Shown one piece after another: positions 2,386 to 20,757 of a DNA stretch of 64,000 nucleotides. A program made the position numbers and the translations under genes. Position 1 is the stretch's first letter. Each line of letters begins with the position of its first letter. The notes below the pieces were generated by a model. That model ran no database searches and was not told the origin of the DNA. It saw only the letters and a program-made list of their open reading frames with translations. This DNA is from an uncultured Candidatus Saccharibacteria bacterium. Lineage in GTDB: Bacteria; Patescibacteriota; Minisyncoccia; Minisyncoccales; MHMH01. Location of the stretch: the NCBI GenBank assembly GCA_964568775.1, contig CAZMQW010000001.1, positions 719 to 64,718 of the forward strand, given 5' to 3'.

Positions 2386-2386
2386 G

Positions 2387-4667: not shown

Positions 4668-4671
4668 AAAG

Positions 4672-5742: not shown

Positions 5743-5745
5743 AGG

Positions 5746-6300
5746 TTATTCGCTTATTTCCCTTTTTTTCTTATCCCCCAGATCGTCAACCTTTTTACTG
5801 TAATCGTCGATCAGTTTCTGCAGATCGTCCTTGGCCCGGAACTTGTCGTCCTCCCTGATTTTCCCGTCTTTAAACCCGTCCTGGACTTCCCGCCAGGCCT
5901 GCTCCCGCCACCTCCGCAAAACTTTGCGGGCTTCCTCCTGCTTTTCCGACAAAAGCCGGCCCAATTGTTTGCGGTAATCCTCGGTCAACGGAGGCAAATT
6001 GATTCTGACGGTGTCCTTGTCAACGATCGGGCTGGCGCCGATTCCGCTCTTTTCCAAAGCAGCCACAATGCCCTCAATGTAAGATTTGTCCCAGGGCTGG
6101 ATTGAAATCTGCTTTGTTTCGGGAGTGGAAATGGCCGCCAGCTGTTTTAAGGGAAGTTTCTGGCCGAAACAGTCAACCACAATGTCCTCGACCAAAGAAG
6201 GAGTGGCTCTGGATGTTCTGATTTTGGCCATCTCAGTTTCAAAAAAATGAATGACTTTGTCCAGTTCCGGCTTAATTTTATTGATTATTTCTTGATGCAT
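5746..6300 (-). CDS. frr: ribosome recycling factor
   Basis: 184 aa with full-length RRF-like sequence (..IRTSRATPSLVEDI.. LPPLTEDYRKQL..). Confidence 0.95.
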   Translation of the reverse strand: MHQEIINKIKPELDKVIHFFETEMAKIRTSRATPSLVEDIVVDCFGQKLPLKQLAAISTPETKQISIQPWDKSYIEGIVAALEKSGIGASPIVDKDTVRINLPPLTEDYRKQLGRLLSEKQEEARKVLRRWREQAWREVQDGFKDGKIREDDKFRAKDDLQKLIDDYSKKVDDLGDKKKREISE

Positions 6301-6329
6301 ATCTAATTAAAATAATAGCAGAATTTTTC

Positions 6330-7127
6330 CTACAATTCCAGCATTAAAATTTCCAGAGCCAGCCGGGGGTTAACGTTGGTCGTGGAAACCAAAAAATTGG
6401 TTGTTTGGATAAGCTTTAAAATATTCTTTAGCTTAACCAGGGAATATTCTTTGGATTTATTGCTGACTGCAGCCAACAGCATCTCCCGGAAATATCTGAG
6501 CCAGATATCAAGAATTTCTTTCAGGTTTTGGGGCTCTTGAGACAGCTCTTTGGCGTATTGGAAACGGTCGGCCAAATTAGATTGAGTTATTTTTAAAATA
6601 TCTTTAATTCTTTTGTCCTGGCGGTCAACACTCAAAGAGCCGCCGTAGAATCTCAAGCGCTCCACTCTAGAGAGAACTGTCGGCAGCAGCATTTCGGGAT
6701 ACTCGGTAACTAAAATAAAAACAGTTTTGCCCTTGGGCTCTTCCAACAGTTTTAAAAAAGCGCTCTGAGCTTCCTGATTCAGACAGTGGGCCTCGTCAAT
6801 AATCACCGCTTTGAAAGGGGCAGAATAAGCCCTCAAAGAAAGATGGGCAGTCAAGTCCCTGATCTGGGCTATTTTTATTTCCTTGCCTTGGGGTTCAACG
6901 ATAAACAGGTCGGGATGAACGTTCTTGGCGATGTCCCCACAGGCGCGGCACTGCTGGCAGGGTCTCTTTTCAAAATCCTTGTTCTCGCAATTGAGGAGCT
7001 TTATAAACTCTAAGGCTAGAGCTTTCTTGCCGAGAGAATTCTGGCCGTAAAATAACAGAGCGTGGGGTGTTTTTTCAAGCTCCACGCTTTTTTTAAGAAA
7101 CTGCCATTGTTTTTGATGGCCGATCAT
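6330..7127 (-). CDS. holB: DNA polymerase III delta' subunit
   Basis: HALLFYGQNSLGKKALA P-loop-like region and Cys cluster CQQCRAC. I chose the ATG at 7127 (ATGA overlap with the mreB stop) over the track start at 7202. Confidence 0.8.
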   Translation of the reverse strand: MIGHQKQWQFLKKSVELEKTPHALLFYGQNSLGKKALALEFIKLLNCENKDFEKRPCQQCRACGDIAKNVHPDLFIVEPQGKEIKIAQIRDLTAHLSLRAYSAPFKAVIIDEAHCLNQEAQSAFLKLLEEPKGKTVFILVTEYPEMLLPTVLSRVERLRFYGGSLSVDRQDKRIKDILKITQSNLADRFQYAKELSQEPQNLKEILDIWLRYFREMLLAAVSNKSKEYSLVKLKNILKLIQTTNFLVSTTNVNPRLALEILMLEL

Positions 7128-8134
7128 TTCCGCTTGCTCATTATGCTTTTTTTGTAAACCGCTAGATTCTCCAGAACAACGCCCGTACCCTTGGCCACGC
7201 ACAAAAGCGGGTCATCAGCAATAAAGCAGGGCACGCCAGTCTCCTGAGCTATCAAGGTATCAATGTTGCGCAGCAAAGCTCCCCCGCCCGACAAAATCAT
7301 GCCCTTATCCATAACGTCAGCCGACAGTTCGGGCGGTGTGTCTCTGAGAACCTGCTTGATAACCTGGATGATATCGATTAAAGAATCTCTAATCGCCCCG
7401 GAAATCTCGTTGGAAGAAATCTTAATGTTGCGCGGCAGACCCAGCACCAGGTCCCGGCCGCGGATTTCCATTTTCTTTTCTTCCTTCTCGGGCAGGGCAG
7501 TGCCGATTTTAATCTTAATGTCTTCGGCCGTCTGCTCCCCGATCGCCAGATTGTATTTCTTTTTAATGTATTCGGAAATGGCCACGTTCATCTTGTCCCC
7601 GGCCACCCTGGCCGAACTGGCAGTAACAATACCGCCCAAAGAGATAACTGCTACTTCCGAGGTGCCCCCGCCAATATCAACGATCAAATGGCCCGAGCAG
7701 GCGTTAATCGGTATGCCAGCGCCGATGGCCGCCAATATCGGCTCTTTGGCCACGAATGTCTCCTTGGCGCCCGCATTAGTAGCCGCTTCAATCACCGCCC
7801 TTCTTTCGGTTGAGGTAATGCCGGCTGGCACAGCTATCATTAATTCGGGCTTTAAAAACTTAAAAAATCCGGCTGTTTTTTTAATGAAATATCTGATCAT
7901 GGCCTGGGTAACCCTGAAATCAGCAATCACCCCGTCTCTCAACGGCCGGTAAACCCGGATAGTGTCGGGAGTCCTTCCGGTCATTTCCTTGGCTTCCTCG
8001 CCCACGGCCAAAATCCTGTTCTCGTTAAGAGAAACAGCCACGACCGATGGCTCCTGTAAAACTACGCCTTTGTTGGGAACAAAGACCAAGGAGTTGCACG
8101 TGCCCAAATCAATGCCGATTTTTCTAACTAACAT
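7124..8134 (-). CDS. mreB: actin-like protein MreB (paralog 2)
   Basis: 336 aa with IGIDLGTCNSLVF, DIGGGTSEV and ILSGGGALLRNID motifs. Confidence 0.9.
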   Translation of the reverse strand: MLVRKIGIDLGTCNSLVFVPNKGVVLQEPSVVAVSLNENRILAVGEEAKEMTGRTPDTIRVYRPLRDGVIADFRVTQAMIRYFIKKTAGFFKFLKPELMIAVPAGITSTERRAVIEAATNAGAKETFVAKEPILAAIGAGIPINACSGHLIVDIGGGTSEVAVISLGGIVTASSARVAGDKMNVAISEYIKKKYNLAIGEQTAEDIKIKIGTALPEKEEKKMEIRGRDLVLGLPRNIKISSNEISGAIRDSLIDIIQVIKQVLRDTPPELSADVMDKGMILSGGGALLRNIDTLIAQETGVPCFIADDPLLCVAKGTGVVLENLAVYKKSIMSKRK

Positions 8135-8140
8135 ATATGT

Positions 8141-9406
8141 TTAATCTTTTACCCTTTTAATATCAGCGCCCAATTTCTGCAGCCTCTCCTCTATCTGCTC
8201 GTAACCCCTGTCTATCTGGTATACATTATTAATAATAGTTTTGCCTTTGGCAATCAAGCCCGCGATTATCAGGGCGGCCCCGCCCCTTAAATCGAAAGAG
8301 CCCAATTCCCTGCCCTGCAACTGGGTCGGCCCGTTAATAATGGCACGGTGCGGATCGGCAAAATATATCTCCGCTCCCATCTTATTTATCTCTTCCAGAT
8401 ATTTCAGCCGGCCTTCGTAAAGCGGGTCGTGGATCAGGGTGGAACCGGGAGCCTGGGTAGCCAGAACTCCAAAAGCTGACTGCAAATCAGATGGTATGCC
8501 CGGATAGGGCAGGCTCTGAATCTTGTCTATTTTCAGTTTTTTCCAGGGCAGAACCCTGACAGTGTTCTTACCCACAATCTGATATGGCACCCCGCAGTCT
8601 CTGAGTTTTTTCAAAGGCAGCTCCAGATAAGCCAGCTCCACGTTTTTCACCAGTACATTGCCTCTGGTGGCGGCCGCTGTCAAAATAAAAGTGCCTGCTT
8701 CAATCGGGTCATAAATCAAATGATGCCTGACTCCTTTCAATTTAGGCGAGCCTTCAACAATAATTTCATGGGTGCCCGCCCCTTTAATTTTAACTCCCAT
8801 CTTTTTCAAAAAACTGGCCAGCTCTTTAACCTGGTAATCCTGATCAGCTGTCTTAATCACGGTCTTCTGAGGCAGCAGAGAGCTAAAAAGCATCAGGTTC
8901 TCGGTGGCGGTCACGCTGAACTCGTTCAGAACAACTTCTTTCTCTTTGTTTTTGCGAGCCTTTAATAAATATTTGTCTTTGTCTTTGGCAATCTTAACGC
9001 CTAGCTGAGCAAAACCGTCCAAATGCGTATCAATCGGTCTGGCGCCGATAACGCAGCCACCCGGCTGGGGCAGCTTTATGTGGCCGAATCTGGCCAATAA
9101 AGGCCCGAAAAAAAGCACCGAACCACGCAAAAGACAGATTAAATCCTGTTTGGCTTTAGCTGGGTTGATTTGGGTGTTTTTAATCTTAATGGAGCGCTCC
9201 CCCACCCAGGTGATTTTAGAACCCATGGCTTTGAGGATTTCAATCATGCGGAAAACGTCCTCAATCAAGGGAAGATTCTCAATTAGGCATTCCTCACGGG
9301 TCAAAAGAGAAGCAGCTAAAATCGGAAAGGCGGCGTTTTTGGCGCCCCTGACTTCGATTTCGCCTTTCAACGGCTTACCGCCGTTGATGATGAATTTATC
9401 GGCCAT
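8141..9406 (-). CDS. murA: UDP-N-acetylglucosamine 1-carboxyvinyltransferase
   Basis: 421 aa with GAKNAAFPILAASLL and the active-site region LPQPGGCVIGARPID. Confidence 0.95.
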   Translation of the reverse strand: MADKFIINGGKPLKGEIEVRGAKNAAFPILAASLLTREECLIENLPLIEDVFRMIEILKAMGSKITWVGERSIKIKNTQINPAKAKQDLICLLRGSVLFFGPLLARFGHIKLPQPGGCVIGARPIDTHLDGFAQLGVKIAKDKDKYLLKARKNKEKEVVLNEFSVTATENLMLFSSLLPQKTVIKTADQDYQVKELASFLKKMGVKIKGAGTHEIIVEGSPKLKGVRHHLIYDPIEAGTFILTAAATRGNVLVKNVELAYLELPLKKLRDCGVPYQIVGKNTVRVLPWKKLKIDKIQSLPYPGIPSDLQSAFGVLATQAPGSTLIHDPLYEGRLKYLEEINKMGAEIYFADPHRAIINGPTQLQGRELGSFDLRGGAALIIAGLIAKGKTIINNVYQIDRGYEQIEERLQKLGADIKRVKD

Positions 9407-9417
9407 ATGCTCTTTTT

Positions 9418-9446
9418 ATCCTATCTTAAAATAACGAAGTTGGCAA
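9418..9446 (-). promoter_or_regulatory. sigma70-type promoter of the murA operon
   Basis: Minus strand TTGCCA-N17-TAGGAT. The -10 ends 11 nt before the murA ATG. Confidence 0.45.
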
Positions 9447-9543
9447 ATATAAATATGGTCGATGTTTATCCTTAAGCAAATTAAAAAGGACGTCTGGCTA
9501 AATTCGGCCAGGCGCCCTATTTATTTGTAGTTTTAACGCTTTC

Positions 9544-9738
9544 TTACCAATCTTCTTTTAATATGGTATCTAATTTACCTTCGTGGTTCTCGTGGTAAAA
9601 TAGCGTTTCCGGCGACGTATCTTCCAGCGCCGCCTCTTTTACTTCTTCATAAACTCCACAATGCTTGGAGATTTTCCTCCCGTTTTTATTCATCGCGACT
9701 ACCGTGTCAAATTGAGTTCTTATCAAACTGTGAATCAT
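9544..9738 (-). CDS. hypothetical small protein
   Basis: 64-aa ORF preceded by GAAGGAGA about 7 nt upstream of the ATG. Confidence 0.5.
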   Translation of the reverse strand: MIHSLIRTQFDTVVAMNKNGRKISKHCGVYEEVKEAALEDTSPETLFYHENHEGKLDTILKEDW

Positions 9739-9786
9739 GTTTTTTCTCCTTCTGTATTAAATTTTTAACAACCCAATCTTAACAGA

Positions 9787-9815
9787 TTGATTTTAACCTG
9801 TCAATAAGATAAAAT
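9787..9815 (+). promoter_or_regulatory. sigma70-type promoter of the PEGA-domain gene
   Basis: TTGATT-N17-TAAAAT, with the -10 ending 9 nt before the ATG at 9825. Confidence 0.45.
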
Positions 9816-9824
9816 GGATAAGAT

Positions 9825-10595
9825 ATGCAAAAAAGAACCAGAACTATTTTATTCATCATCTGCGTGGTTTTATTCTGCCTGGCCGCCCCTTCAATAATTC
9901 TCTATTCCCAAGGCTACCGGGTTGATTTGGGAGGAAAAAGAATCGTGCAGACCGGCGGTCTGTATTTCAAAGCCCTGCCCCCCAACGCCGAAATCTATAT
10001 CAACGGAGAATTTAGAGACAAGACCGCTTTTCTGACTAACTCCCTTTTTATAGAAAACCTGCTGCCAAAAACCTATCAGGTAGAGGTAAAAAAAGAGGGC
10101 TACCGCTCTTGGGAGAAAAACCTGACGGTTGAGGAAAGGAAAGTGACCGACGCCAAAAACATCATTCTTATCACCCAAGAGCCCGATTTCACGCTTTTTT
10201 CAACCAGCACTCAAGAAATCAACCTGACTGTTGCCGGCATAACGGCTAGCGCCACTTCTTCCGACAAGGAAAAAATTATTGAAGCCACGGACTACGAAAT
10301 CTGGGTTTTCTTTCCGAATAAACAAACCGAAAAACCTTCAATTGAACAAAAAGAAAGGATATTTTTGACCCGCTTCTCGGAAAAAATCGGTAAAATATTC
10401 TGGTTTAACGATTACTATCTGATTTTCAACCTGAGCGATAAAATAAAAGTCGTCGAAATCGACGACCGCGACAGAATAAATATGGTTGACATAGCTGAGT
10501 TTGAAAATCCGGAGATATTCTGGAGCCAGAAAGACAAAAAGCTGTATGTTTTAAGCGAAGGCAAATTATACGTTGCAACTAACCTACTTCCCTGA
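9825..10595 (+). CDS. membrane-anchored PEGA-domain protein
   Basis: 256 aa with an N-terminal TM helix. PPNAEIYINGEF...YQVEVKKEGYRSWEKNLTV resembles a PEGA domain. Confidence 0.6.
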   Translation: MQKRTRTILFIICVVLFCLAAPSIILYSQGYRVDLGGKRIVQTGGLYFKALPPNAEIYINGEFRDKTAFLTNSLFIENLLPKTYQVEVKKEGYRSWEKNLTVEERKVTDAKNIILITQEPDFTLFSTSTQEINLTVAGITASATSSDKEKIIEATDYEIWVFFPNKQTEKPSIEQKERIFLTRFSEKIGKIFWFNDYYLIFNLSDKIKVVEIDDRDRINMVDIAEFENPEIFWSQKDKKLYVLSEGKLYVATNLLP

Positions 10596-11273
10596 AGACT
10601 CCACCTTCTTTTTAAAATCGGCCCATTTCACCTCTCCCCCGTCAACCTTGGAGCAAACATCTTTGAACTGACAATAACGACATTGCCAGTTTCCCGGATA
10701 ATCGGTCAGCCGGCCGGGGATAATGTCGGAATCGATCTTTTTCTTGATTTCGTTCAAATTATTTAACAGGGCCAAAACTCTCTTTTTGTCGTAATTATAA
10801 ACGAACTCTTTCAACTCCAAGCTGTTCTTGTTAACGTACAAAAGAATGCCTTTGGGAATTTTAAAGTAATGCAGATAAAGCTGGATCTGGTCGATATTTT
10901 CCGGCTTAGCTTCCGCCAATTTGTCAAATATCATGCTGTTCATGCTTTTAATGTCCAAAACATACATGTTTTTGCCGTCGCTCAAAATAGCGTCGGCCCG
11001 GCCGCTGATTATCTCCTGAGGAGGAATATTCACTTCGGAAGCAACCACGTGAATGTCTCTAATACTTAACAGCGGCTTCATGATCAGCTGGTGGATATGG
11101 TCGCCGTGATCAAATAATCTCAAGATATTCGCCTTCATATCTCCCCGGGGCGCGTTTTTAAACTTGAAAAAAAGCGCCCGGCCGCATTTGCCCGCGTCCG
11201 TAATATAAAAATGGTGCTGTTCCCTGTCTTTCTGCCTGTCCAAATAATATTGGTCAATAGACTCTTTAAGCAT
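10584..11273 (-). CDS. PD-(D/E)XK nuclease with Cas4-like 4-Cys cluster
   Basis: 229 aa with an N-terminal Cys (DAGKCGR), nuclease core ..ADAIL..YVLDIKS.., a QLYLHY motif and C-terminal CRYCQFKDVC. Confidence 0.65.
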   Translation of the reverse strand: MLKESIDQYYLDRQKDREQHHFYITDAGKCGRALFFKFKNAPRGDMKANILRLFDHGDHIHQLIMKPLLSIRDIHVVASEVNIPPQEIISGRADAILSDGKNMYVLDIKSMNSMIFDKLAEAKPENIDQIQLYLHYFKIPKGILLYVNKNSLELKEFVYNYDKKRVLALLNNLNEIKKKIDSDIIPGRLTDYPGNWQCRYCQFKDVCSKVDGGEVKWADFKKKVESSGK

Positions 11274-11274
11274 A

Positions 11275-11724
11275 TTATCTCTTTTTCCATTGAGGAGCTC
11301 TGCGAGCTCTTTTTAAACCTGGTTTTTTACGCTCCCGCATCCTGGAATCCCGAGTCAGAAAGCCGGCTTTTTTCAGTCTCTGGCGCAGTTCGGGGCTGAA
11401 TTTCACCAAGGCTCGGGCTATCCCGTGCCTGACGGCCTCGGCTTGGGCGTGCAACCCGCCTCCTTTCACTTTAACCACTGCTTTAAATTTATCCAAGCTA
11501 TCTGCCTGAACTAAAGAATCTTGAACGGCTTGCTGCCATTCCAAAACAGGAAAATATTTTTCCAAAGTTTTTTCGTTGACTAAAATTTCTCCCTTGCCCT
11601 GGGCTTGCAGCCTGACTCTGGCCACGGCCGTCTTTCTTCGGCCGACCGCCTCAAAATAGCGCTCTTTCTTGACTTGCGGTTTTGGCTTAGCTTTTGCTTG
11701 TTTTTTGGTTTTTTTAACTGCCAT
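11275..11724 (-). CDS. rpsI: 30S ribosomal protein S9 (K-rich N-terminal extension)
   Basis: GRRKTAVARV... and C-terminal ..RKKPGLKRARRAPQWKKR. Follows rplM. Confidence 0.95.
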   Translation of the reverse strand: MAVKKTKKQAKAKPKPQVKKERYFEAVGRRKTAVARVRLQAQGKGEILVNEKTLEKYFPVLEWQQAVQDSLVQADSLDKFKAVVKVKGGGLHAQAEAVRHGIARALVKFSPELRQRLKKAGFLTRDSRMRERKKPGLKRARRAPQWKKR

Positions 11725-11727
11725 GGA

Positions 11728-12078
11728 TTATTGAAATTTGAGCCTTTTAATTTGTTCTGCCCTTAATTTGTTCCTGGGCAGCATGCCGAAAACTGTCCTT
11801 TTTAAAACTTCTGCCGGACTCTTTTCAAAAACCTTTTTAAAGGGCGTTTCTTTCAAGCCGCCCGGATAGCCCGAATGACGGTAATATTTTTTTTGCTCCA
11901 TTTTTCGGCCGCTCAGTTTGACTTTATCAACGTTTTTTATTACCACGATATCGCCCGAATCCTGATTGGGCCGAAAATCGGGCCTGTGCTTGCCGCGCAA
12001 AAAAACAGCGATTTTTGTCGCCAGCCGGCCCAACACCATGTTGGTAGCGTCAATTGTTTGAGTTTGTCTTTTTATCAT
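11728..12078 (-). CDS. rplM: 50S ribosomal protein L13
   Basis: MIKRQTQTIDATNMVLGRLATKIA.. I chose the ATG at 12078. The track start at 12147 would add a non-homologous extension. Confidence 0.9.
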   Translation of the reverse strand: MIKRQTQTIDATNMVLGRLATKIAVFLRGKHRPDFRPNQDSGDIVVIKNVDKVKLSGRKMEQKKYYRHSGYPGGLKETPFKKVFEKSPAEVLKRTVFGMLPRNKLRAEQIKRLKFQ

Positions 12079-12433
12079 GTTGCTGTTTAACGAGTTCAAT
12101 GAAAGCGACTCTGGCGCCGTCCGACTGCCTTTGACCGATTTTAACAATACTGGTATAGCCTCCTTTTCTGGCTTTATAGCGCGGCGCTATCTCGGTAATC
12201 ATTTTTTTAACCAGGGCGGGCGAAAAAAGTCCGGACAGCTTTCGTTGGGAGGTTAAATCTTTTTTCTTGGCCAGGGTAATGAGTTTTTCAGCAAAACCGG
12301 CGACCTCTTTTGCTTTGGCTTCGGTCGTCTTGATCTTCTCCCGCAAAAATAAAGCGCTGGCCAGGGTTCTGAGCAAAGCCCGGCGCTGGTCTTTCTCTCT
12401 ATTTAGTTTTCTTCCTTTTTTTCTTTTTCGCAT
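12050..12433 (-). CDS. rplQ: 50S ribosomal protein L17
   Basis: MRKRKKGRKLNREKDQRRALLRTLA.. is a typical L17 N-terminus. The start overlaps the rpoA 3' end by 35 nt. Confidence 0.9.
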   Translation of the reverse strand: MRKRKKGRKLNREKDQRRALLRTLASALFLREKIKTTEAKAKEVAGFAEKLITLAKKKDLTSQRKLSGLFSPALVKKMITEIAPRYKARKGGYTSIVKIGQRQSDGARVAFIELVKQQHDKKTNSNN

Positions 12434-13202
12434 TTTTTTTAGCAGAAACTTTTTTCACTTTTTTGGCCGGTTTTTTTCTTGGCTTTTTCTTTAAAACTGG
12501 CGCAGCTTCAGCCGCAACTTTTTTGAATGCTTCGCCGAGCAAGCCAAAATGCTTAACTAAAATTCCGGCTGCCTCGCTCAACGCTTCTTCCGGAGTCACG
12601 GTGCCGTCGGTCTCAAGCTCAATAGAAAGGCGGTCAAAATCAGTCCTTTCTCCCACTCTCATGTTTTCCACTCGGTAGCTGACTTTTCTGACCGGAGTGA
12701 AAATAGCATCTAAAGCAATCGTGCCGATTTCCATTTTTCCCTTTTTCCTGATTTCGGCCGGCTCATAGCCTAAACCTTTTTCAATCAGAATTTCTATTTC
12801 CAAATGGGCTGTTTTGGCGGTTAAGGTTGCGACGGATGCCTCTTTGTTCATTAATTCTACCTGAGAAGGCAACTGAAAAGCCGAACCTTTGACGGTTTTT
12901 GCACCCTTGACCGACAGTTTGGCTTTCTGGGACTCCTCGCCGTAAAGCTTAAATCTCAACTGCTTAATGTTCAGCAAAATATTGATAACGTCTTCCCGGA
13001 CTCCGGGGATGGTTGAGAACTCGTGCTGGGTATTTTTAATTTTAACCTGGGTGACGGCTGCCCCGGGGAGAGAAGAAAGCAAAACTCTTCTCAAACTGTT
13101 GCCGATGGTCACCCCGTACCCGGGATAAAGACCCTCGAATTCAAAAATGGCTGAATTGCCTTTTTTCTCGACGACTTTCGGTTGAAGGGGTAAAGGAATC
13201 AT
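12399..13202 (-). CDS. rpoA: RNA polymerase alpha subunit, NTD only plus lysine-rich tail
   Basis: 267 aa. The alpha-NTD sequence (GNSLRRVLLSSLPG.. RVGERTDFDRL..) ends near aa 225. The remaining 42 aa are KKKPRKKPAKKVKKVSAKKNAKKKKRKKTK-like. Confidence 0.9.
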   Translation of the reverse strand: MIPLPLQPKVVEKKGNSAIFEFEGLYPGYGVTIGNSLRRVLLSSLPGAAVTQVKIKNTQHEFSTIPGVREDVINILLNIKQLRFKLYGEESQKAKLSVKGAKTVKGSAFQLPSQVELMNKEASVATLTAKTAHLEIEILIEKGLGYEPAEIRKKGKMEIGTIALDAIFTPVRKVSYRVENMRVGERTDFDRLSIELETDGTVTPEEALSEAAGILVKHFGLLGEAFKKVAAEAAPVLKKKPRKKPAKKVKKVSAKKNAKKKKRKKTK

Positions 13203-13231
13203 ATGATTAAAAATTAATAATTAATGTTACT

Positions 13232-13861
13232 TTAGCGCGAATAATATTCGAAAATGGTTGAGATTTCAGCTGGCGGGCTGGCTTCCTCTAAGTTGGGCAA
13301 GCCAACTACCTCGCCTTCCAATTTCTCCACATTTACTTTCAGCCAGCTCGGTGCTTGGTGTTTTTTTAATATGGGAGCCAGGTTGCTGAAAATCTTTTTT
13401 TTCTGGGATAGAGGCCGCAGAGTCACTTTGTCTCCTTTCTTCAGTTGACAGGCCGGAATGTTTACCCGCTTGCCATTGATCAGAAAATGGCCATGGGAAA
13501 CAATCTGCCGGGCCTGAGATCGGGAAGAAGCAAAACCCAAACGAAAAACAACATTGTCAAAGCGGCTCTCCAGCTTTTGGATTAAAAGGTTGGCCGCATC
13601 GCCGGTTCGGCTTTTTTTATTAAGAATCTCTTTGACGTATTTGCGAAACTGTCTTTCTCTTAGATTATACCAGTTTCTCAGTTTTTGTTTTTCCCTCAGT
13701 TCTTTGCCGTATTCGGAAAGGGCCCGTGGTCTTTTTTTTCTTTTCATACCGGGTGGATAAGGTTTTCTAATCAAAGGGCACTTAGGTGAGAGACATTTTT
13801 CGCCTTTCAAAAAAAGTTTGACACCAAGTCTGCGGCAAATTTTACATTTATTATCCAGCAT
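13232..13861 (-). CDS. rpsD: 30S ribosomal protein S4
   Basis: 209 aa with an N-terminal Cys cluster (CKICRRLG..CLSPKC) and an S4 domain. Confidence 0.95.
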   Translation of the reverse strand: MLDNKCKICRRLGVKLFLKGEKCLSPKCPLIRKPYPPGMKRKKRPRALSEYGKELREKQKLRNWYNLRERQFRKYVKEILNKKSRTGDAANLLIQKLESRFDNVVFRLGFASSRSQARQIVSHGHFLINGKRVNIPACQLKKGDKVTLRPLSQKKKIFSNLAPILKKHQAPSWLKVNVEKLEGEVVGLPNLEEASPPAEISTIFEYYSR

Positions 13862-13865
13862 AAAT

Positions 13866-14321
13866 TTAGACTCTTCTTACTTTCGGCGACCGACAGCCGT
13901 TATGAGGCACCGGGGTAATATCAGTGATGGCCACGATATCCAAGCCGCGGGCAGCCAGCGACCTGATGGCTGATTCCCGGCCCGAGCCAATACCTTTAAT
14001 GAAAACAGCGATTTTTTCTATGCCCAATTTCTGAATTGTCGGCATGATGGCTTCGGCCACCTTGGAAGCAGCAAAGGGTGTCGCTTTTTTCGTCCCCTTG
14101 AACCCGATGGCTCCTGCTGACGTCCAAGCCAAAACATTACCCCGCAAATCGGTCAGAGTAATAATGGTGTTGTTGTAGGAAGAAGAAATGTAGATTTTAC
14201 CTTCTTTGATCCTAGCTGAAGGAACTTCTACTTTTGTTTCTTTTTTAACCGCAGCTTCAATCTTTTCTCTTTCTTCCAGCAACTCCTTCTCGGTTTTTTG
14301 GATAATGCGTTTCTTGCCCAT
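13866..14321 (-). CDS. rpsK: 30S ribosomal protein S11
   Basis: ..NNTIITLTDLRGNVLAWTSAG..GFKGTKKATPFAA.. with an N-terminal extension. Confidence 0.95.
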   Translation of the reverse strand: MGKKRIIQKTEKELLEEREKIEAAVKKETKVEVPSARIKEGKIYISSSYNNTIITLTDLRGNVLAWTSAGAIGFKGTKKATPFAASKVAEAIMPTIQKLGIEKIAVFIKGIGSGRESAIRSLAARGLDIVAITDITPVPHNGCRSPKVRRV

Positions 14322-14325
14322 AATT

Positions 14326-14715
14326 TTAGGTTGGTTCGGACGGCGGTTTTCGGCCGGAGCCCACAGTTTTTCTCACGTTGCCCCTGACCGTTCTGGTATT
14401 GGTTTTGGTTCGCTGACCCCTGACCGGCAGACCTTTGATGTGACGGATGCCCCGCCACGAACCCACGTCTTTCAGTCTTTTTATATTCATCATTTTTTCC
14501 CTTCTCAATTCCCCCTCGATCTTGTAGTTCTTCTCAATCGCCTCTTTCAGCTTATTCACCTCGGTAGCGGAAAGCTTAGCGGCTTTGGTTTGAGGATTTA
14601 TTTTGGTCTCGACCAGGATTTTTCTGCTCAAAGAATGACCTATACCGTAAATATAGGTCAAAGCGGTCTCTATTTGCTTTTGCTCTGGGATATTGACTCC
14701 CGCGATTCTTGGCAT
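14326..14715 (-). CDS. rpsM: 30S ribosomal protein S13
   Basis: MPRIAGVNIPEQKQIETALTYIYGIG.. Confidence 0.95.
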   Translation of the reverse strand: MPRIAGVNIPEQKQIETALTYIYGIGHSLSRKILVETKINPQTKAAKLSATEVNKLKEAIEKNYKIEGELRREKMMNIKRLKDVGSWRGIRHIKGLPVRGQRTKTNTRTVRGNVRKTVGSGRKPPSEPT

Positions 14716-14717
14716 AA

Positions 14718-14831
14718 TTATCCTTGTCTTTGTTTATGTTTGGGATTTTTACAAATTACATAAATCCGACCTTTACGTCGGACAATTTTGCAGTTTTTGC
14801 AAATTTTTTTTACCGATGGTCTGACTTTCAT
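14718..14831 (-). CDS. rpmJ: 50S ribosomal protein L36 (Zn-binding form)
   Basis: Hand-translated and not in the ORF track: [37 protein letters not shown]. The ATG overlaps the infA TGA (ATGA). Confidence 0.9.
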
Positions 14832-15049
14832 TTCCCTCGATAGATTATCCTTCCCCGCTTCTCATCGTACGGGCTCATTTCCACTTGAACCGTGTCGCCG
14901 GGCAGTATCTTAATATGAAACATCCGCAACTTACCCGCCAAATGAGCCATTATTTCCTGGCCGTCGTCCAAACGAACCTTGAAATGAGTGCTGGGAAGGG
15001 CTTCTAAAACAATACCTGTTTTTCTCAGGTTTTTTCTGTTTAGTTCCAT
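14828..15049 (-). CDS. infA: translation initiation factor IF-1
   Basis: [42 protein letters not shown].. I chose the ATG at 15049 because the track start at 15061 is TTG. Confidence 0.9.
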
Positions 15050-15088
15050 TTGATAAGACAATTATTGATGATACCAGACTCCATTGAA

Positions 15089-16321
15089 TTAGTCAACAAT
15101 TACTTTGACTTCAATTTCAGCGCTGTCAACCGGCACGGTCGTCACCCAGAAAGGCCAGAGTCTGGCCTGGACTTGCTCGATCTCGGGGAAAGCCCTCAAA
15201 GTCGCTCTGATTTCGTCCGGCCTCAGATCCCTCACTTTTTCTTTGAGATAATTCTCGTCCAGCGCCGAATAGATTTCGCCGCTAATCTCGATGCCCAAAG
15301 TAATCTGGCCATTTTCAATATCAATGGCTTCGGGTAGATAGCTGATGCCGACCGAACCTTCAATCAAAACCTTATCCGTTGGTATTTGGCTGAGAATATA
15401 ATCTCGGGCGAAATCTTTCAGGTCAGACTTTTTCAATACCGGCACCTCTCCCTCAACTTTAATTTGACAGACAAAATTGTTAACCACCTGGCCAACCTCA
15501 GTCAAAGGAATGAACTCAATAACTTTTATCTTCATTTCTTCCTCGATCACAATATAGTCATCAGCCGAAACAGCGCTCTCCAGGGCTGTCTGGCATTCCT
15601 GCCGGGCTTTTTCTTCCAAAATCTTTTCAGCGTTGTCCAGATCGGCCTGGGTGACCTGGGTAACTGAAGTTTTTTTGCCCCCGCTCATGACCGACGAAGA
15701 TTCGCCGTAAACAGATGTGTAGCGGGGGCTGCCTTTTAAACCGGGCACGGAAAAAGTACAGGGACCGATGTTATATTCTTCCCCGGCGCTTGAAGCGATG
15801 ACTTCTACGTCAAGGTATTGCTGAGCCGGAACCACCACTCTTTCTTTAGTTTTGAATTCCCTCAGGTTTTCGTCATCAAAACACCAAAAACGGGTATTGG
15901 CCACTAGAATCTGGTCGAGAGAGTAATTATTGTAAACTCTGATAACTCCCTGGGCTTTATCTTCCCTGGCCGCCTGGCCGCTAGATGGAAACTCCTGGGA
16001 GATAAAATGCTCTTTTTTTATAATTTCCCCCGCAGAAGAAAACTGGCTGGAGAATTCAACCGGAGTTTTGACCGGCCGAATCTCTATTACTGCCTTGGAT
16101 TCAATGAAAACAAGGCAAAGGATAATAATAACCAGCAATCCCCCGATTATTAAAACTGGCTTGCGAAGCCGGAAAGCCCGGGGTAACTTGGGCATTATTT
16201 TCTTCACCTCAATCTTTTTAAACTTGGCCCGCCGCATTGCTTTGGCTGTTTTGGTCGGACTGCTGGATTTTAAGGCTTCTTGCGGCGGTGTAATGTCGAA
16301 TATTTTCTTTTTGTTGGCCAT
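15089..16321 (-). CDS. hypothetical membrane-anchored protein
   Basis: 410 aa with a basic N-terminus, one TM helix (PVLIIGGLLVIIILCLVFI) and a large extracytoplasmic part. I recognise no family. Confidence 0.6.
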   Translation of the reverse strand: MANKKKIFDITPPQEALKSSSPTKTAKAMRRAKFKKIEVKKIMPKLPRAFRLRKPVLIIGGLLVIIILCLVFIESKAVIEIRPVKTPVEFSSQFSSAGEIIKKEHFISQEFPSSGQAAREDKAQGVIRVYNNYSLDQILVANTRFWCFDDENLREFKTKERVVVPAQQYLDVEVIASSAGEEYNIGPCTFSVPGLKGSPRYTSVYGESSSVMSGGKKTSVTQVTQADLDNAEKILEEKARQECQTALESAVSADDYIVIEEEMKIKVIEFIPLTEVGQVVNNFVCQIKVEGEVPVLKKSDLKDFARDYILSQIPTDKVLIEGSVGISYLPEAIDIENGQITLGIEISGEIYSALDENYLKEKVRDLRPDEIRATLRAFPEIEQVQARLWPFWVTTVPVDSAEIEVKVIVD

Positions 16322-16337
16322 AGATATATTATATAAT

Positions 16338-18089
16338 TTATTCCAAAATTGCTCTAATGCGTCTAATGCCCGCGCCAGAAGATTCTTCTTTGACGATTTT
16401 AAAATGGCCCAATTCGCCGGTTCTCTCAGCGTGGGGGCCGGCGCAGATTTCTTTGGAAAATTCGCCGATTGAATAAACTGTCACAGTTTCGGGATATTTT
16501 TCTTTGAAAAAAGCCAAAACATCCTTTTTCACAGCTTCATTATAGCTTATTTCAGCCTTTTCTACCTTTAAATTATCTTTAATCTGCTTGTTAACCAATG
16601 TTTCGACTTTTTTTAACTCTCCGGCCGTTACTTTCTTGAAATGGGAAAAATCAAACCTTAGCCTGGCAGCGGTAATATCAGAACCCATTTGCTTGACGTG
16701 GCTGCCCAAAACTTTTCTCAAAGCGGTGTGAAGTAAATGGGTGGCGGTATGTAATTTGGCGGCGGCAACGCCGGCATCCTTGCCCACGCCGCCGAACTTC
16801 TTTTCAGCACCGGCCCGGGAAACGTCCCGGTGCTTTCTAAATGCTTCCTCAAATCCCATTCTATCAATCTTCAAACCTTTTTCCCTGGCCAATTCTTCAC
16901 TCAATTCCAAAGGAAAACCATAAGTGTCAAAAAGATGAAAGGCGTCCGCCCCGTTAATATCTCCCAGGGCAGCAATTTTTTCAAACTGTTTTAGACCCCT
17001 CTCCAGAGTCTTGGAAAACTTCTCTTCCTCTTTCTGGATTACGGTCAGAATGTCGCTTTCCCGCGAACGAACGGAGGGGTAAACGTCCTGATAAATTTCA
17101 ATGACTTTTTGAGCCAAAGGAATCAGGAAATTCTGAGGGAAGTTAAGTAATCTGCCGAATCTCATAACCCTTCTCAGCAACCTTCTTAAAACATAGCCCT
17201 GTTCGACGTTGGAGGGAAAAATTCCCTCGCTGGCCAGAAAAACAGCGCCTTTGATGTGGTCGGCGACAATACGGTAAGGTTTGGGATTCTGCTGATAGGG
17301 TTCGGCAGAAATCTTTTCGATTTCTTCGAGCAATGGCTTGAACAAATCTGTTTCAAAAACAGATGAAGTGTCTTGACTCGCTATAGCTAATCTTTCCAAA
17401 CCCATGCCCGTATCAACTCCTTTTTTCTTCAAAAGAGTCAGGTTTTTGTTTTTATCCTGATAATATTCGTTGAACACCAAATTCCAAACCTCAACGAACC
17501 GGCCGCATTTACAATTGGGTAAACATTGCTTTCCTTTTTTGCAGGGTTTTAAGGTCAGATCGTAATGGATTTCCGTAGTCGGACCGCAGGGACCGGTCTG
17601 ACCGGTCGGCCCCCAAAAGTTATCCTGCCGGCCGGACCCGTAAATCTTTTTGGGAGAAATACCCAGGCTTTGCCATATTTTCTTTGACTCTTTGTCTTCG
17701 GGCACTTCTTTATCCCCCTTGAAATAGGTAAACCACAATCTGTCTTGAGAAAGCTGGTATTTTTTAACCAAAAGTTCAAAAGCGAATTCAATCGCCTCTT
17801 TTTTGAAATAATCACCGAAACTGAAATTGCCCAGCATCTCCAGAAAAGTCAAATGATCAGTATCCCCCACCTCCTCAATATCGGAGGTACGGAAACACTG
17901 CTGGCAGGAAACCGTCCTCGGACCGTAAGGCGACTTTTTCCCCAGAAAATATTCCTTGAACTGCTGCATGCCGGCCGTAGTAAAAAGCACTGATGGATCG
18001 GTCGGCAACAACGAAGAAGAGGGCACTATTTTGTGTCCTTTTTCCTCAAAAAACTTCAAAAATTCGCTCCGCAGTTGCTTGGATGTCAT
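16338..18089 (-). CDS. alaS: alanyl-tRNA synthetase lacking the C-Ala domain
   Basis: 583 aa with N-terminus LRSEFLKFFEEKGHKIVPSSSL and editing-domain motifs HTATHLLH and CAGPH. The protein ends right after the editing domain. Confidence 0.9.
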   Translation of the reverse strand: MTSKQLRSEFLKFFEEKGHKIVPSSSLLPTDPSVLFTTAGMQQFKEYFLGKKSPYGPRTVSCQQCFRTSDIEEVGDTDHLTFLEMLGNFSFGDYFKKEAIEFAFELLVKKYQLSQDRLWFTYFKGDKEVPEDKESKKIWQSLGISPKKIYGSGRQDNFWGPTGQTGPCGPTTEIHYDLTLKPCKKGKQCLPNCKCGRFVEVWNLVFNEYYQDKNKNLTLLKKKGVDTGMGLERLAIASQDTSSVFETDLFKPLLEEIEKISAEPYQQNPKPYRIVADHIKGAVFLASEGIFPSNVEQGYVLRRLLRRVMRFGRLLNFPQNFLIPLAQKVIEIYQDVYPSVRSRESDILTVIQKEEEKFSKTLERGLKQFEKIAALGDINGADAFHLFDTYGFPLELSEELAREKGLKIDRMGFEEAFRKHRDVSRAGAEKKFGGVGKDAGVAAAKLHTATHLLHTALRKVLGSHVKQMGSDITAARLRFDFSHFKKVTAGELKKVETLVNKQIKDNLKVEKAEISYNEAVKKDVLAFFKEKYPETVTVYSIGEFSKEICAGPHAERTGELGHFKIVKEESSGAGIRRIRAILE

Positions 18090-18173
18090 TACTATTTAAA
18101 TAGTATCAGAAACAAACCAAAAACAAAAGACCAGAGGTGCTCATCGCTTCGAGAGAATCCCAAAAGGGTAATC

Positions 18174-19106
18174 TTATTTGATGATGCCCCCGCCCAAAAC
18201 TTCCTCGCCTTTATAAAAAACAACCGACTGACCGGGAGTTATAGCGCGCTGGGGGCGGCTGAAGACAACTTTGTTATTTTTATGAACCACGGCGGGAGCT
18301 GACTTCGAGCGATATCTGATTTTAGCTTTAACTTTCAAAGGAAACTTTAACGGCCTGCCCGCAATCCAATTGGCTTTTTTGAACGTCAATTCTTTTTTGA
18401 ATAAATCTTTTTCGTTTTTAGTCAGGATAAGGTTTTTCTCTGCATCCCTTCCCAAAACCCAAAATGGACCTCCTGGCAGCCCAATCCCCTTTCTTTGGCC
18501 AATTGTATAAAACTTTACCCCCGCAGGAATTTTAAAGCAGATATCTTGCGATCCAGCTTTTTCAAACATCGGCAGTCTGAATTTTTTAGTAAAATCCCTG
18601 ACTTCATCCTTAGTATACTGGCCGACCGGAAATAAAACGCGTTTCAATTGTTTTGAAGTGAGCCGCCAGAGGAAATACGACTGATCTTTATTTTTATCTT
18701 TAGCCTGCAGCAGCTTGCCCCGGAAAGCTCTGGCATAGTGGCCGGTGGCCACCAAATCAGCTTTTAAACCGAATAAAACGTCAAACTTTATTTCCTTATT
18801 GCAAACCACGCAAGGATTAGGCGTCCGGCCAGCTTGATATTCTTTCAAAAAATAATCGATGATCTTTTCTTTAAATTCTTTCCTCAAATCCAAAACCCGC
18901 AAGGGAATTTTAAGTATTCCGGCGATTCTCCGGGCTCTTTTTTCTCCTTCTTTGAAGTTCTGGGAATCGTAAAGTTTCAGAAAAACCCCTTCAACATTAA
19001 AACCAGCCCTTTTCAAAAGGGCCGCACTGACCGAGGAATCGACTCCTCCCGACATAGCGCAAATGACTTTTTTAGGAAAAACGGTCCGCAACGACTGAAG
19101 CGACAT
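18174..19106 (-). CDS. mnmA: tRNA 2-thiouridylase
   Basis: 310 aa with PP-loop CAMSGGVDSSVSA, NPCVVCN and ATGHYAR. Confidence 0.85.
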   Translation of the reverse strand: MSLQSLRTVFPKKVICAMSGGVDSSVSAALLKRAGFNVEGVFLKLYDSQNFKEGEKRARRIAGILKIPLRVLDLRKEFKEKIIDYFLKEYQAGRTPNPCVVCNKEIKFDVLFGLKADLVATGHYARAFRGKLLQAKDKNKDQSYFLWRLTSKQLKRVLFPVGQYTKDEVRDFTKKFRLPMFEKAGSQDICFKIPAGVKFYTIGQRKGIGLPGGPFWVLGRDAEKNLILTKNEKDLFKKELTFKKANWIAGRPLKFPLKVKAKIRYRSKSAPAVVHKNNKVVFSRPQRAITPGQSVVFYKGEEVLGGGIIK

Positions 19107-19587: not shown

Positions 19588-19597
19588 AAACTATCTT

Positions 19598-20221: not shown

Positions 20222-20225
20222 AAGT

Positions 20226-20684: not shown

Positions 20685-20695
20685 GTGGTATTAAT

Positions 20696-20704
20696 ATTCT
20701 ACCA
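20696..20704 (-). promoter_or_regulatory. extended -10 element (TGgTAGAAT)
   Basis: Minus strand TGGTAGAAT, ending 11 nt before the ATG at 20684 and directly after a terminator. Confidence 0.4.
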
Positions 20705-20714
20705 TAAAAAACTT

Positions 20715-20757
20715 TAAAAATAAAAAGGGTGCTTAATCCGAAGACTAAAGCATCCTT
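20715..20757 (-). terminator. rho-independent terminator after the 72-aa ORF
   Basis: 10-bp stem AAGGAUGCUU/AAGCACCCUU (one G-U pair) followed by UUUAUUUUU on the minus strand. Confidence 0.55.

What the first reader, a model, noticed from the sequence alone, without database searches (positions are those of the whole stretch)
12399..12528. RNA polymerase alpha subunit has no alpha-CTD; a polylysine tail replaces it
Seen in the sequence:
- rpoA is only 267 aa.
- The NTD homology stops near ..ILVKHFGLLGEAF.
- The last ~42 aa are KKKPRKKPAKKVKKVSAKKNAKKKKRKKTK-like, encoded in a stretch that also overlaps the rplQ start by 35 nt.

From established knowledge, the ~85-aa alpha-CTD binds UP elements and class-I activators.

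By inference, this RNAP cannot use the canonical alpha-CTD contacts. The cationic tail could give sequence-independent DNA anchoring.
Basis: partly seen in the sequence, partly recalled or inferred. Interest (0 to 1): 0.55.

Follow-up and report, generated by a model that had tools for sequence, protein, structure and literature searches.

The report
RNA polymerase alpha with polylysine tail
In this Nealsonbacteria-like (Patescibacteria) genome the RNA polymerase alpha subunit really has lost its DNA- and activator-binding C-terminal domain and ends in a disordered polylysine tail, and many relatives show the same loss, with about 40% of CTD-less proteins in a second Parcubacteria set carrying an AT-hook instead.

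Summary
rpoA (12399..13202, minus strand) encodes 267 aa: a normal alpha N-terminal domain, an 11-aa linker remnant, and a 30-aa tail with 18 Lys, 2 Arg and no acidic residue. The last 35 nt overlap rplQ. No alpha-CTD lies in the gene, downstream of it, or elsewhere in the 64-kb window.

It is not an artefact. The identical gene occurs in at least 5 contigs from at least 3 samples, and 117 of its 120 closest database relatives have the same architecture.

New points:
- The last 11 residues are a +1-frame reading of the ancestral L17 start (MRKRKKGRKL).
- CTD-less alpha is widespread in Patescibacteria/Parcubacteria.
- In a second Parcubacteria set, 38 of 97 analysable CTD-less proteins carry a canonical AT-hook (KKRGRPKK), 37 another basic tip, 8 an acidic or neutral tail, and 14 no tail.
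- The primary sigma factor in this window carries a roughly 70-aa polybasic N-terminal extension, conserved in composition in relatives.

Best reading: the tails give electrostatic, sequence-independent contact with upstream DNA (inferred, not shown).

Prior literature found: one sentence noting alpha-CTD loss in Parcubacteria. The replacement tails were not found described. A stand-alone CTD elsewhere in the genome was not excluded.

The parts
12399..13202 (-). rpoA CDS, 267 aa, stop TAG at 12399-12401
   Evidence: ORF list; TIGR02027 252.8 bits (cut-off 227.8) and NF003519 278 bits (cut-off 277)
12525..13202 (-). alpha N-terminal domain (res 1-226): dimerisation and insert domains
   Evidence: Pfam PF01193 and PF01000; phmmer versus PDB alpha subunits, query 16-227; AF2 pLDDT about 90, last helix 204-232
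12492..12524 (-). remnant of the inter-domain linker (res 227-237, KKVAAEAAPVL)
   Evidence: This variable region aligns with linker sequences of CTD-bearing relatives; for example P0097 ..PSFAKAAEGKKE.. matches CTD-less P0011 ..SSFAKAMEGKEK..
12435..12491 (-). polybasic tail outside the rplQ overlap (res 238-256, KKKPRKKPAKKVKKVSAKK)
   Evidence: In 115 relatives this part has 37% K+R against 10.5% D/E, with variable length and sequence. AF2 pLDDT <50 for 237-261
12399..12433 (-). 35-nt rpoA/rplQ overlap; encodes (N)AKKKKRKKTK* in the rpoA frame and MRKRKKGRKLN(R) in the rplQ frame
   Evidence: Sequence. The same L17 N-terminus occurs in CTD-bearing relatives L002-L004, where rpoA stops 13-51 nt upstream. 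The same 35-nt overlap occurs in L006 and L167-L169
12050..12433 (-). rplQ (ribosomal protein L17), 127 aa
   Evidence: Pfam PF01196, E 4e-31
52771..54030 (-). Primary sigma-70 factor, 419 aa. Residues 1 to about 70 (53821..54030) are a polybasic N-terminal extension preceding region 1.1. It is a companion feature, not part of rpoA.
   Evidence: Pfam regions 1.1, 1.2, 2, 3 and 4; sequence; most cationic 25-aa segment in the window; relatives L085-L102 carry open in-frame K/R-rich extensions

Best explanation
In this lineage a deletion removed the alpha-CTD coding region between the inter-domain linker and rplQ. The rpoA frame now runs through the linker remnant and an A-rich, Lys-coding stretch. 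It ends at a TAG formed inside the first 12 codons of rplQ, read in the +1 frame. These steps are shown or follow directly from the sequence comparison. RNA polymerase therefore carries two copies of an alpha N-terminal domain. Each ends in a roughly 40-residue disordered tail with a net charge of about +20. The enzyme lacks the folded domain that reads UP elements and is contacted by class-I activators. The proposed function is inferred, not shown. The tail leaves the alpha-NTD at the point where the flexible linker emerges in other bacteria, on the upstream face of the enzyme. It would therefore bind the phosphate backbone of DNA upstream of -35 electrostatically and without sequence preference. 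That would retain the non-specific upstream-DNA contribution of alpha-CTD to promoter capture while activator-dependent control is given up. Parallel Parcubacteria lineages reach a similar end with an AT-hook tip, a minor-groove binder of A/T-rich DNA, which is the kind of contact alpha-CTD makes at UP elements. The sigma-70 of this genome adds a third polybasic appendage. The overlap probably also couples L17 translation to termination of alpha.
For: - Loss and architecture.
- Overprint: L17 begins MRKRKKGRKL in CTD-bearing syntenic relatives as well, so the terminal AKKKKRKKTK is that DNA read one base out of frame.
- Disorder: AF2 pLDDT is below 50 for residues 237-261, while the NTD is about 90.
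- Selection on charge rather than sequence: across 115 CTD-less relatives the tails are 21-61 aa, 41% K, median net +13. The part outside the overlap is 37% K+R against 10.5% D/E. Linkers of the three CTD-bearing relatives are net -2 to +1.
- Frame kept: 107 of 115 tails end in the same K-rich frame despite many length changes.
- Not a proteome-wide habit: among 88 window ORFs only the sigma N-terminus is more cationic.
- Parallel evidence: among 97 analysable CTD-less relatives of P0268, 38 carry KKRGRPKK-type AT-hooks after unconserved, mildly acidic spacers and 37 carry other basic tips. None of 15 CTD-bearing relatives has the motif.
- These genes are complete, with rplQ 18-66 nt downstream, so the AT-hook is not an overprint.
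- Sigma N-terminal polybasic extensions are conserved in composition in relatives at 51-79% identity.
- Experimental precedent: lysine repeats stabilise the enzyme-DNA complex in Streptomyces TopA (PMC5714199).
- CTD-less alpha supports assembly and basal transcription (as summarised in PMC8321222).
Against: - No DNA-binding data exist for any of these tails.
- The last 11 residues are constrained by rplQ, so their conservation says nothing about alpha.
- The tail DNA is 61% A and all three frames are Lys-rich (12-18 K), so composition bias or mRNA-level selection upstream of the rplQ start could contribute.
- Among relatives of P0268, 14 of 97 CTD-less alphas end right after the NTD (for example Uhrbacteria, 227 aa, L170) and 8 have acidic or neutral tails. 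A basic tail is therefore dispensable for a CTD-less polymerase.
- The window tail has no GRP core, so the AT-hook argument applies only by analogy.
- The remainder of this genome was not searched for a separate CTD.
Confidence: 0.5

Rival explanations
1. The tail is a by-product. After the CTD deletion, the rpoA frame simply reads through leftover A-rich linker DNA into rplQ until a chance stop. The Lys richness reflects A-rich sequence kept for rplQ translation initiation and coupling. The peptide itself has no role. RNAP in these organisms just does without upstream contacts.
For: The terminal 11 aa are fixed by the L17 codons. The tail DNA is 61% A and every frame is K-rich. Ancestral linkers were already purine-rich and K/E-rich. 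Some lineages have bare NTDs or acidic tails. E. coli alpha truncated after the NTD assembles and transcribes (PMC8321222).
Against: - The non-overlap part stays basic and acid-poor over 115 diverged relatives with many in-frame length changes.
- Lineages whose rpoA does not overlap rplQ still end in basic tips.
- A precise KKRGRPKK motif is conserved in 38 proteins within otherwise unalignable tails.
- The sigma factor independently carries a polybasic extension.
Confidence: 0.3
2. The polycationic tail binds RNA or an acidic partner rather than promoter DNA. Candidates are nascent RNA, rRNA or the ribosome (transcription-translation coupling), or an acidic protein or region such as sigma region 1.1.
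For: Polylysine binds any polyanion. Nelson & Stegen (PMC4508563) discuss YidC forms whose extended, positively charged C-terminal region can partly substitute for SRP, and compare parcubacterial YidC with them. rpoA is translationally linked to ribosomal protein genes.
Against: AT-hooks in the parallel lineages are classically DNA minor-groove motifs. The attachment point on the alpha-NTD is where the linker to the upstream-DNA-binding CTD normally emerges (established structural knowledge). There is no specific evidence for any RNA or protein partner.
Confidence: 0.13
3. The gene is split. A free-standing alpha-CTD is encoded elsewhere in the genome and joins RNAP non-covalently, so canonical contacts are retained.
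For: Only 64 kb of the genome was available. Diverged small HhH-like proteins could escape the searches.
Against: tblastn and HMM searches of the six-frame window gave no hit (best E 0.2-0.5). The CTD-profile search of the protein database gave 38 hits. Their sequences mostly look like fragments of ordinary rpoA, starting at an internal MRVGERTDFD or at a non-Met residue. The two checked in genomic context are fragments lying just upstream of rplQ: one is a frameshifted assembly, the other sits at a contig edge. A CTD detached from its tether has no known way to bind the core enzyme.
Confidence: 0.05
4. Assembly or sequencing artefact: a frameshift or chimeric join truncates a normal rpoA.
For: None found.
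Against: The identical gene with the same overlap occurs in at least 5 contigs from at least 3 samples. 117 related proteins from many sources share the architecture. rplQ starts 35 nt before the rpoA stop, leaving no space for 65-85 codons.
Confidence: 0.01

Closest known systems
Canonical bacterial RNA polymerase alpha subunit (RpoA; TIGR02027 / PRK05182; NTD + linker + CTD PF03118)
   Same: The N-terminal domain has the same dimerisation and insert domains and aligns to solved alpha subunits over residues 16-227. The operon position is the same: S13-S11-S4-rpoA-L17.
   Different: The whole CTD is missing. A disordered polylysine tail follows the linker remnant, and the gene overlaps rplQ by 35 nt.
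CTD-less alpha in extremely reduced endosymbionts (Hodgkinia, Tremblaya) and Euglena chloroplasts, plus a one-line mention for Parcubacteria (PMC8321222)
   Same: Natural loss of alpha-CTD with retention of the NTD.
   Different: Those cases are described as erosion. No replacement polybasic or AT-hook tail is reported. The source cited for Parcubacteria (PMC4508563) does not mention RNA polymerase in its main text. Here the loss is accompanied by a compositionally conserved basic tail in hundreds of sequences.
E. coli alpha truncations lacking the CTD (alpha-235/256; Igarashi and Ishihama 1991, recalled from my own knowledge; principle stated in PMC8321222)
   Same: An NTD-only alpha assembles core enzyme and gives basal transcription but no UP-element or class-I activation. 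This is the expected baseline behaviour of the present enzyme.
   Different: Those are laboratory constructs with no cationic tail.
Lysine-repeat tails of actinobacterial DNA-binding proteins (TopA, HupB/HupS, sigma HrdB; PMC5714199)
   Same: Low-complexity Lys/Ala/Pro-rich tails are appended to DNA-handling enzymes. In TopA they were shown to stabilise the enzyme-DNA complex. They are also noted on principal sigma factors.
   Different: The host protein (alpha) and phylum differ, and the genome here is 44% GC. No homology is implied; the resemblance is one of composition and presumed physics.
AT-hook motif (PF02178; HMGA proteins) and C-terminal AT-hook or basic motifs of sigma-bound Wbl proteins (PMC6954389)
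   Same: Parallel CTD-less alphas end in KKRGRPKK, the canonical R-G-R-P core flanked by basic residues. Wbl proteins show how an RNAP-tethered basic motif can add DNA contacts.
   Different: The window protein has no GRP core. Pfam AT_hook scores in relatives are sub-threshold (11.9-12.5 against 17.4 bits), as is usual for a 13-residue motif.
Archaeal RpoD / eukaryotic Rpb3 and AC40 alpha-like subunits
   Same: They have the alpha-like fold and no alpha-CTD.
   Different: They form heterodimers with RpoL/Rpb11. The window protein scores as bacterial RpoA (278 bits) and only 28.8 bits (cut-off 153) on archaeal RpoD.

Membership tests
Bacterial RpoA (TIGR02027 / PRK05182) | N-terminal dimerisation domain (PF01193) with inserted domain (PF01000) | tested here: met
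   PF01000 E 4e-29 and PF01193 E 1e-23; AF2 NTD pLDDT about 90; aligns to PDB alpha subunits
Bacterial RpoA (TIGR02027 / PRK05182) | Whole-protein score above the curated equivalog cut-off | tested here: met
   TIGR02027 252.8 against 227.8 bits; NF003519 278 against 277 bits; the other PRK05182 sub-models fall below their cut-offs
Bacterial RpoA (TIGR02027 / PRK05182) | C-terminal domain (PF03118), tethered by a flexible linker | tested here: not met
   No PF03118 hit at E<=1. Models match only to about position 231-250. No CTD in any frame of the window.
Bacterial RpoA (TIGR02027 / PRK05182) | Position in the alpha operon: rpsM-rpsK-rpsD-rpoA-rplQ | tested here: met
   S13, S11 and S4 lie upstream, and L17, L13 and S9 downstream, on the same strand
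AT-hook (PF02178) | G-R-P core, usually R-G-R-P, flanked by Lys/Arg | tested here: not met
   The window tail has no GRP; only 2 of 120 close relatives do. The motif is present as KKRGRPKK in 38-42 Parcubacteria CTD-less alphas, where the Pfam score is sub-threshold.
Lysine-repeat DNA-binding tails (actinobacterial TopA/HupB/HrdB type) | Low-complexity, repeated K-rich short motifs (AKK/PKK/KKV) in a disordered terminal extension | tested here: met
   KKKPRKKPAKKVKKVSAKKNAKKKKRKKTK: 20 of 30 basic, none acidic; AF2 predicts disorder
Lysine-repeat DNA-binding tails (actinobacterial TopA/HupB/HrdB type) | Tail-dependent DNA binding | not testable with these tools
   Requires EMSA or footprinting with and without residues 238-267
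Archaeal RpoD / Rpb3-like subunit | Score above the RpoD equivalog cut-off | tested here: not met
   NF001988 28.8 bits against a cut-off of 153

The most novel reading that the evidence does not exclude
A large part of the Patescibacteria has repeatedly replaced the folded alpha-CTD by disordered tails tipped with polylysine or a true AT-hook. At least in this lineage, a polybasic N-terminal arm has also been added to sigma-70. On this reading, upstream-promoter contact is made by tethered cationic peptides: electrostatic for polylysine, and A/T minor-groove reading for AT-hooks. Class-I (alpha-CTD-dependent) activation does not exist in these organisms. This would be a different solution to promoter capture in a major bacterial radiation.
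Probability: 0.35. Interest if true: 0.78.

Novelty: new variant of a known kind. Interest (0 to 1): 0.62.

Why it matters
Alpha-CTD is treated as a universal bacterial feature. [quoted passage not shown] It underlies UP-element recognition and class-I activation.

If a whole radiation of small-genome bacteria transcribes without it, then promoter models, regulon predictions and activator mechanisms from model bacteria do not transfer to them. That matters more if they substitute tethered polycationic or AT-hook peptides on alpha and a polybasic arm on sigma.

The AT-hook variants give a simple, testable hypothesis: a peptide replaces a folded domain for reading A/T-rich upstream DNA. The rpoA/rplQ overlap is also a clean example of a protein C-terminus created by overprinting a neighbouring gene's start.

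Tried and rejected
- Frameshift or artefact: rejected, because there is no space before rplQ, the other frames are closed, and the same gene occurs in several samples.
- CTD elsewhere in the window: tblastn with E. coli and clade CTDs, plus a CTD HMM on six-frame ORFs, found nothing.
- Stand-alone CTD genes in the protein database: the profile search returned 38 short proteins. By sequence they mostly look like fragments of normal rpoA. The two examined in context are fragments (a frameshifted assembly, L001, and a contig edge, L002).
- P0133 has a K-rich stretch before a CTD. It sits on a 780-bp contig and could not be resolved.
- Number of independent losses: an NJ tree of NTDs places CTD-bearing sequences among CTD-less ones, but internal branches are 0.001-0.02 and there was no bootstrap. 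Within the window's clade the result is unresolved.
- Literature: the statement that Parcubacteria lack alpha-CTD (PMC8321222) cites Nelson & Stegen 2015, whose main text contains no mention of RNA polymerase. Searches for alphaCTD or alpha-CTD with Patescibacteria returned nothing.
- Rfam: no RNA family at the junction.
- Pfam AT_hook: only sub-threshold hits, in relatives.
- Organism name for the window's own protein: not available. Placement as Nealsonbacteria-like rests on named neighbours.
Full report
**The observation**

The ORF at 12399..13202 on the minus strand encodes 267 aa. Pfam finds the two halves of the alpha N-terminal domain, PF01000 (residues 53-169) and PF01193 (residues 27-219). 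It finds no PF03118 (alpha-CTD), even at E<=1.

NCBIfam rpoA equivalogs match only their first 230-250 positions out of 298-344. The protein still passes the TIGR02027 and NF003519 cut-offs. Against solved structures, residues 16-227 align to E. coli alpha 22-232, and nothing aligns after about residue 247.

Residues 226-267 read FKKVAAEAAPVLKKKPRKKPAKKVKKVSAKKNAKKKKRKKTK. The last 30 contain 18 Lys, 2 Arg and no Asp or Glu, against 10% Lys in the window's ORFs (P about 3e-11).

rplQ (12050..12433) begins with the canonical L17 N-terminus MRKRKKGRKLNR. The 35-nt overlap 12399..12433 is therefore real.

The identical gene with the same overlap was assembled in at least 5 contigs from at least 3 samples.

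**Is the CTD somewhere else?**

tblastn with the E. coli CTD and with CTDs of close relatives found nothing in the 64-kb window. A CTD HMM run on all six-frame ORFs also found nothing (best E 0.2-0.5).

A profile of the CTDs of the three closest CTD-bearing relatives was searched against 5.8 billion proteins. It returned 38 short proteins.
- By sequence, most look like fragments of ordinary alpha genes: they start at an internal MRVGERTDFD or at a non-Met residue.
- The two checked in context are a frameshift-broken rpoA (L001) and a contig-edge fragment directly upstream of rplQ (L002).

No free-standing CTD gene was seen. The rest of this genome was not available, so a diverged split CTD is unlikely but not excluded.

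**How the tail arose**

Of the 120 closest database proteins, 117 are 249-289 aa without PF03118. They are unnamed or labelled Nealsonbacteria, Paceibacterota or Patescibacteria. Three (P0078, P0097, P0112) are 309-320 aa with a CTD.

The CTD-bearing relatives share the window's synteny: S13-S11-S4-rpoA-L17-L13-S9, followed in L002 and L003 by a PD-(D/E)XK nuclease gene. Their L17 begins MRKRKKGRKL, MRKRKRSRKL or MRKRKKGKKF, 13-51 nt after the rpoA stop.

The terminal (N)AKKKKRKKTK of the window protein is therefore pre-existing rplQ DNA read one base out of frame. The rplQ ATG sits inside the AAT-GCG codons, and the TAG stop is formed across the Asn-Arg codons.

The near-invariant ..KKH[AE]KKKKRKKTK ending of the relatives is explained by constraint on L17, not on alpha.

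Upstream of it, the variable segment still aligns with the old inter-domain linker. For example, P0097 reads ..PSFAKAAEGKKE.. and CTD-less P0011 reads ..SSFAKAMEGKEK...

The simplest history is a deletion from the end of the linker to rplQ, followed by read-through.

**Is the basic tail more than a by-product?**

Evidence that it is:
- Across 115 CTD-less relatives the tails are 21-61 aa, 41% Lys, median net charge +13.
- The part outside the overlap is 37% K+R against 10.5% D+E, with no sequence conservation and many length differences.
- 107 of 115 still end in the same frame.
- The linkers of the three CTD-bearing relatives are net -2 to +1.
- AlphaFold2 with a 50-sequence alignment gives a confident NTD (pLDDT about 90, last helix 204-232) and a tail with pLDDT below 50.
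- Among 88 non-redundant ORFs of the window, only one other 25-residue segment is as cationic.

Evidence that it may not be:
- The tail DNA is 61% A, and all three frames would be Lys-rich.
- Composition bias, or selection on the mRNA upstream of the rplQ start, could therefore contribute.

**The wider picture**

A HMMER search of 1.84 billion cluster representatives was inspected for its 150 best hits.
- 95 have a CTD and 55 do not.
- 32 of the 55 look complete.
- 23 of those 32 end in a basic tip.
- Named members are Patescibacteria or Parcubacteria group bacteria.

- CTD-less alpha occurs in records labelled Paceibacterota, Paceibacteria, Parcubacteria, Falkowbacteria and Patescibacteria group, and in a complete 1.19-Mb chromosome (L051).
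- A Nealsonbacteria record (L009), the closest GTDB representative (L005), and the true Saccharimonadales records L039 and L043 keep the CTD. Many binned MAGs in this sample carry an uninformative 'uncultured Candidatus Saccharibacteria' label, including L005, so that label alone does not place a record in Saccharimonadia.
- L006 shows the same 35-nt overlap as the window.

An NJ tree of NTDs interleaves CTD-bearing and CTD-less lineages across the phylum. This suggests repeated loss. It is unresolved inside the window's own clade, where the shared junction argues for a single event.

**AT-hooks**

Four representatives end in KRGRPKK. A search seeded with one of them (P0268, Parcubacteria) gave 105 of 120 relatives without a CTD.

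Of the 97 that could be analysed:

| Tail class | Number |
|---|---|
| Canonical AT-hook (K/R-GRP-K/R, mostly KKRGRPKK) | 38 |
| Other basic tip | 37 |
| Acidic or neutral tail | 8 |
| Ends right after the NTD | 14 |

- The AT-hooks lie near the C-terminus, after 16-60 residues of unconserved, mildly acidic spacer.
- None of the 15 CTD-bearing relatives has the motif.
- Two AT-hook genes checked in context are complete, with rplQ 18 and 66 nt downstream, so the motif is not an overprint.
- Pfam AT_hook hits the site but below threshold.
- An Uhrbacteria-type alpha of 227 aa abuts rplQ directly.

A basic tip is thus the predominant state (about 77%) but is not an obligatory accompaniment of CTD loss. 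The window protein itself has no GRP core.

**A companion feature**

The only segment in the window more cationic than the alpha tail is the N-terminus of the primary sigma factor (52771..54030; Pfam regions 1.1-4). About 70 residues of almost pure K/R/P ([33 protein letters not shown]...) precede region 1.1.

Its ATG overlaps the upstream gene's stop by 4 nt. Sigma relatives at 51-79% identity nearly all have open, in-frame N-terminal extensions of roughly 14-100 aa. These are mostly 40-50% K+R, have almost no acidic residues and are unconserved in sequence. More distant homologues have short, ordinary N-termini.

Two subunits of this holoenzyme therefore carry polybasic disordered arms.

**Mechanism**

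Shown:
- The CTD is lost.
- The tail is disordered and polycationic.
- One third of it is an overprint on rplQ.
- Basic composition is conserved outside the overlap.
- AT-hook tips occur in parallel lineages.
- Sigma carries its own polybasic arm.

From established knowledge:
- Alpha lacking the CTD assembles and supports basal transcription, but not UP-element or class-I activation (summarised in PMC8321222).
- Alpha-CTD also contributes sequence-independent upstream DNA contacts.
- AT-hooks bind the minor groove of A/T-rich DNA.
- Lysine repeats stabilise enzyme-DNA complexes in Streptomyces TopA and occur on some principal sigma factors (PMC5714199).

Inferred:
- The two alpha tails, leaving the NTD where the linker normally emerges, contact upstream DNA electrostatically.
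- They replace the non-specific part of alpha-CTD function.
- Activator-dependent control through alpha is absent.
- The overlap couples L17 translation to alpha.

I put about 0.5 on this. I put about 0.3 on the tail being a largely neutral by-product and about 0.13 on an RNA, ribosome or protein partner. About 0.05 goes to a split CTD elsewhere, and an artefact is essentially excluded.

**Novelty**

One paper states in a single sentence that alpha-CTD loss is 'also present in Parcubacteria' (PMC8321222). The main text of the source it cites does not mention RNA polymerase.

Another recent paper describes alpha-CTD as ubiquitous in Bacteria (PMC12531629). Full-text searches combining alphaCTD or alpha-CTD with Patescibacteria returned nothing.

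The loss itself is therefore not entirely new. I did not find these points described:
- the replacement tails (polylysine here, AT-hook elsewhere);
- the overprinting on rplQ;
- the sigma extension.

I rate this a new variant of a known kind, of moderate to high interest.

Noticed in passing
window 52771..54030 (-), especially 53821..54030: The primary sigma-70 factor has a roughly 70-aa, almost purely K/R/P N-terminal extension before region 1.1. It is the most cationic segment in the window. Relatives at 51-79% identity nearly all have open, in-frame K/R-rich extensions of 14-100 aa with unconserved sequence. The alternative start at M75 is not formally excluded, but the ATG overlaps the upstream stop by 4 nt.
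   Followed up: partly
L165 3001-3879; L166 3001-3849 (Parcubacteria rpoA loci); proteins P0268, P0322-P0440: CTD-less alpha subunits end in a canonical AT-hook (KKRGRPKK) after an unconserved, mildly acidic spacer. This holds for 38 of 97 analysable relatives and for none of 15 CTD-bearing ones. rplQ follows 18-66 nt downstream.
   Followed up: yes
L170 2501-3184 (Uhrbacteria-type, P0426): This alpha subunit is only 227 aa, a bare N-terminal domain with no tail. rplQ starts 1 nt after its stop. The protein is seen on 13 contigs of up to about 148 kb. CTD-less polymerases can therefore do without any basic tail.
   Followed up: partly
protein P0133 (106 aa, 780-bp contig): The fragment begins MAKKVKSKIKAKKIVKKVKKIK... 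and is followed by a normal alpha-CTD. It may be a lineage with a Lys-rich linker in front of a retained CTD, which would be a possible intermediate state. It may instead be a gene-calling artefact.
   Followed up: no
window 29101..29697 (-): Ribosomal protein L22 (Pfam domain at residues 71-173) has a roughly 70-aa N-terminal extension that includes [21 protein letters not shown]. The TTG start is uncertain.
   Followed up: no
window 12050..12433 (-): L17 is 127 aa, against 116 aa in the CTD-bearing relatives L002-L004. The extra residues are a C-terminal QQHDKKTNSNN.
   Followed up: no
window 12402..12491 (-): The tail-coding DNA contains runs of 7-8 A, for example GCTAAAAAAAATGCG at the rplQ start. 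Such runs can promote transcriptional or translational slippage. A +1 shift here would fuse alpha to L17. This is purely a sequence observation.
   Followed up: no
window 10584..11273 (-): A PD-(D/E)XK / Cas4-like nuclease gene (229 aa) lies directly downstream of rpsI. It is conserved in the same position in relatives L002 and L003.
   Followed up: no
window 15089..16321 (-): This 410-aa ORF has a basic N-terminal patch and only a sub-threshold Pfam hit to the OB fold of mRNA-capping enzyme (19.9 bits against a cut-off of 27). Its identity is unknown.
   Followed up: no
window 1..64000: Almost all long ORFs are on the minus strand. Rfam finds a single tRNA (52269..52340) and no ribosomal-protein leader. 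Window GC is 43.7%.
   Followed up: no
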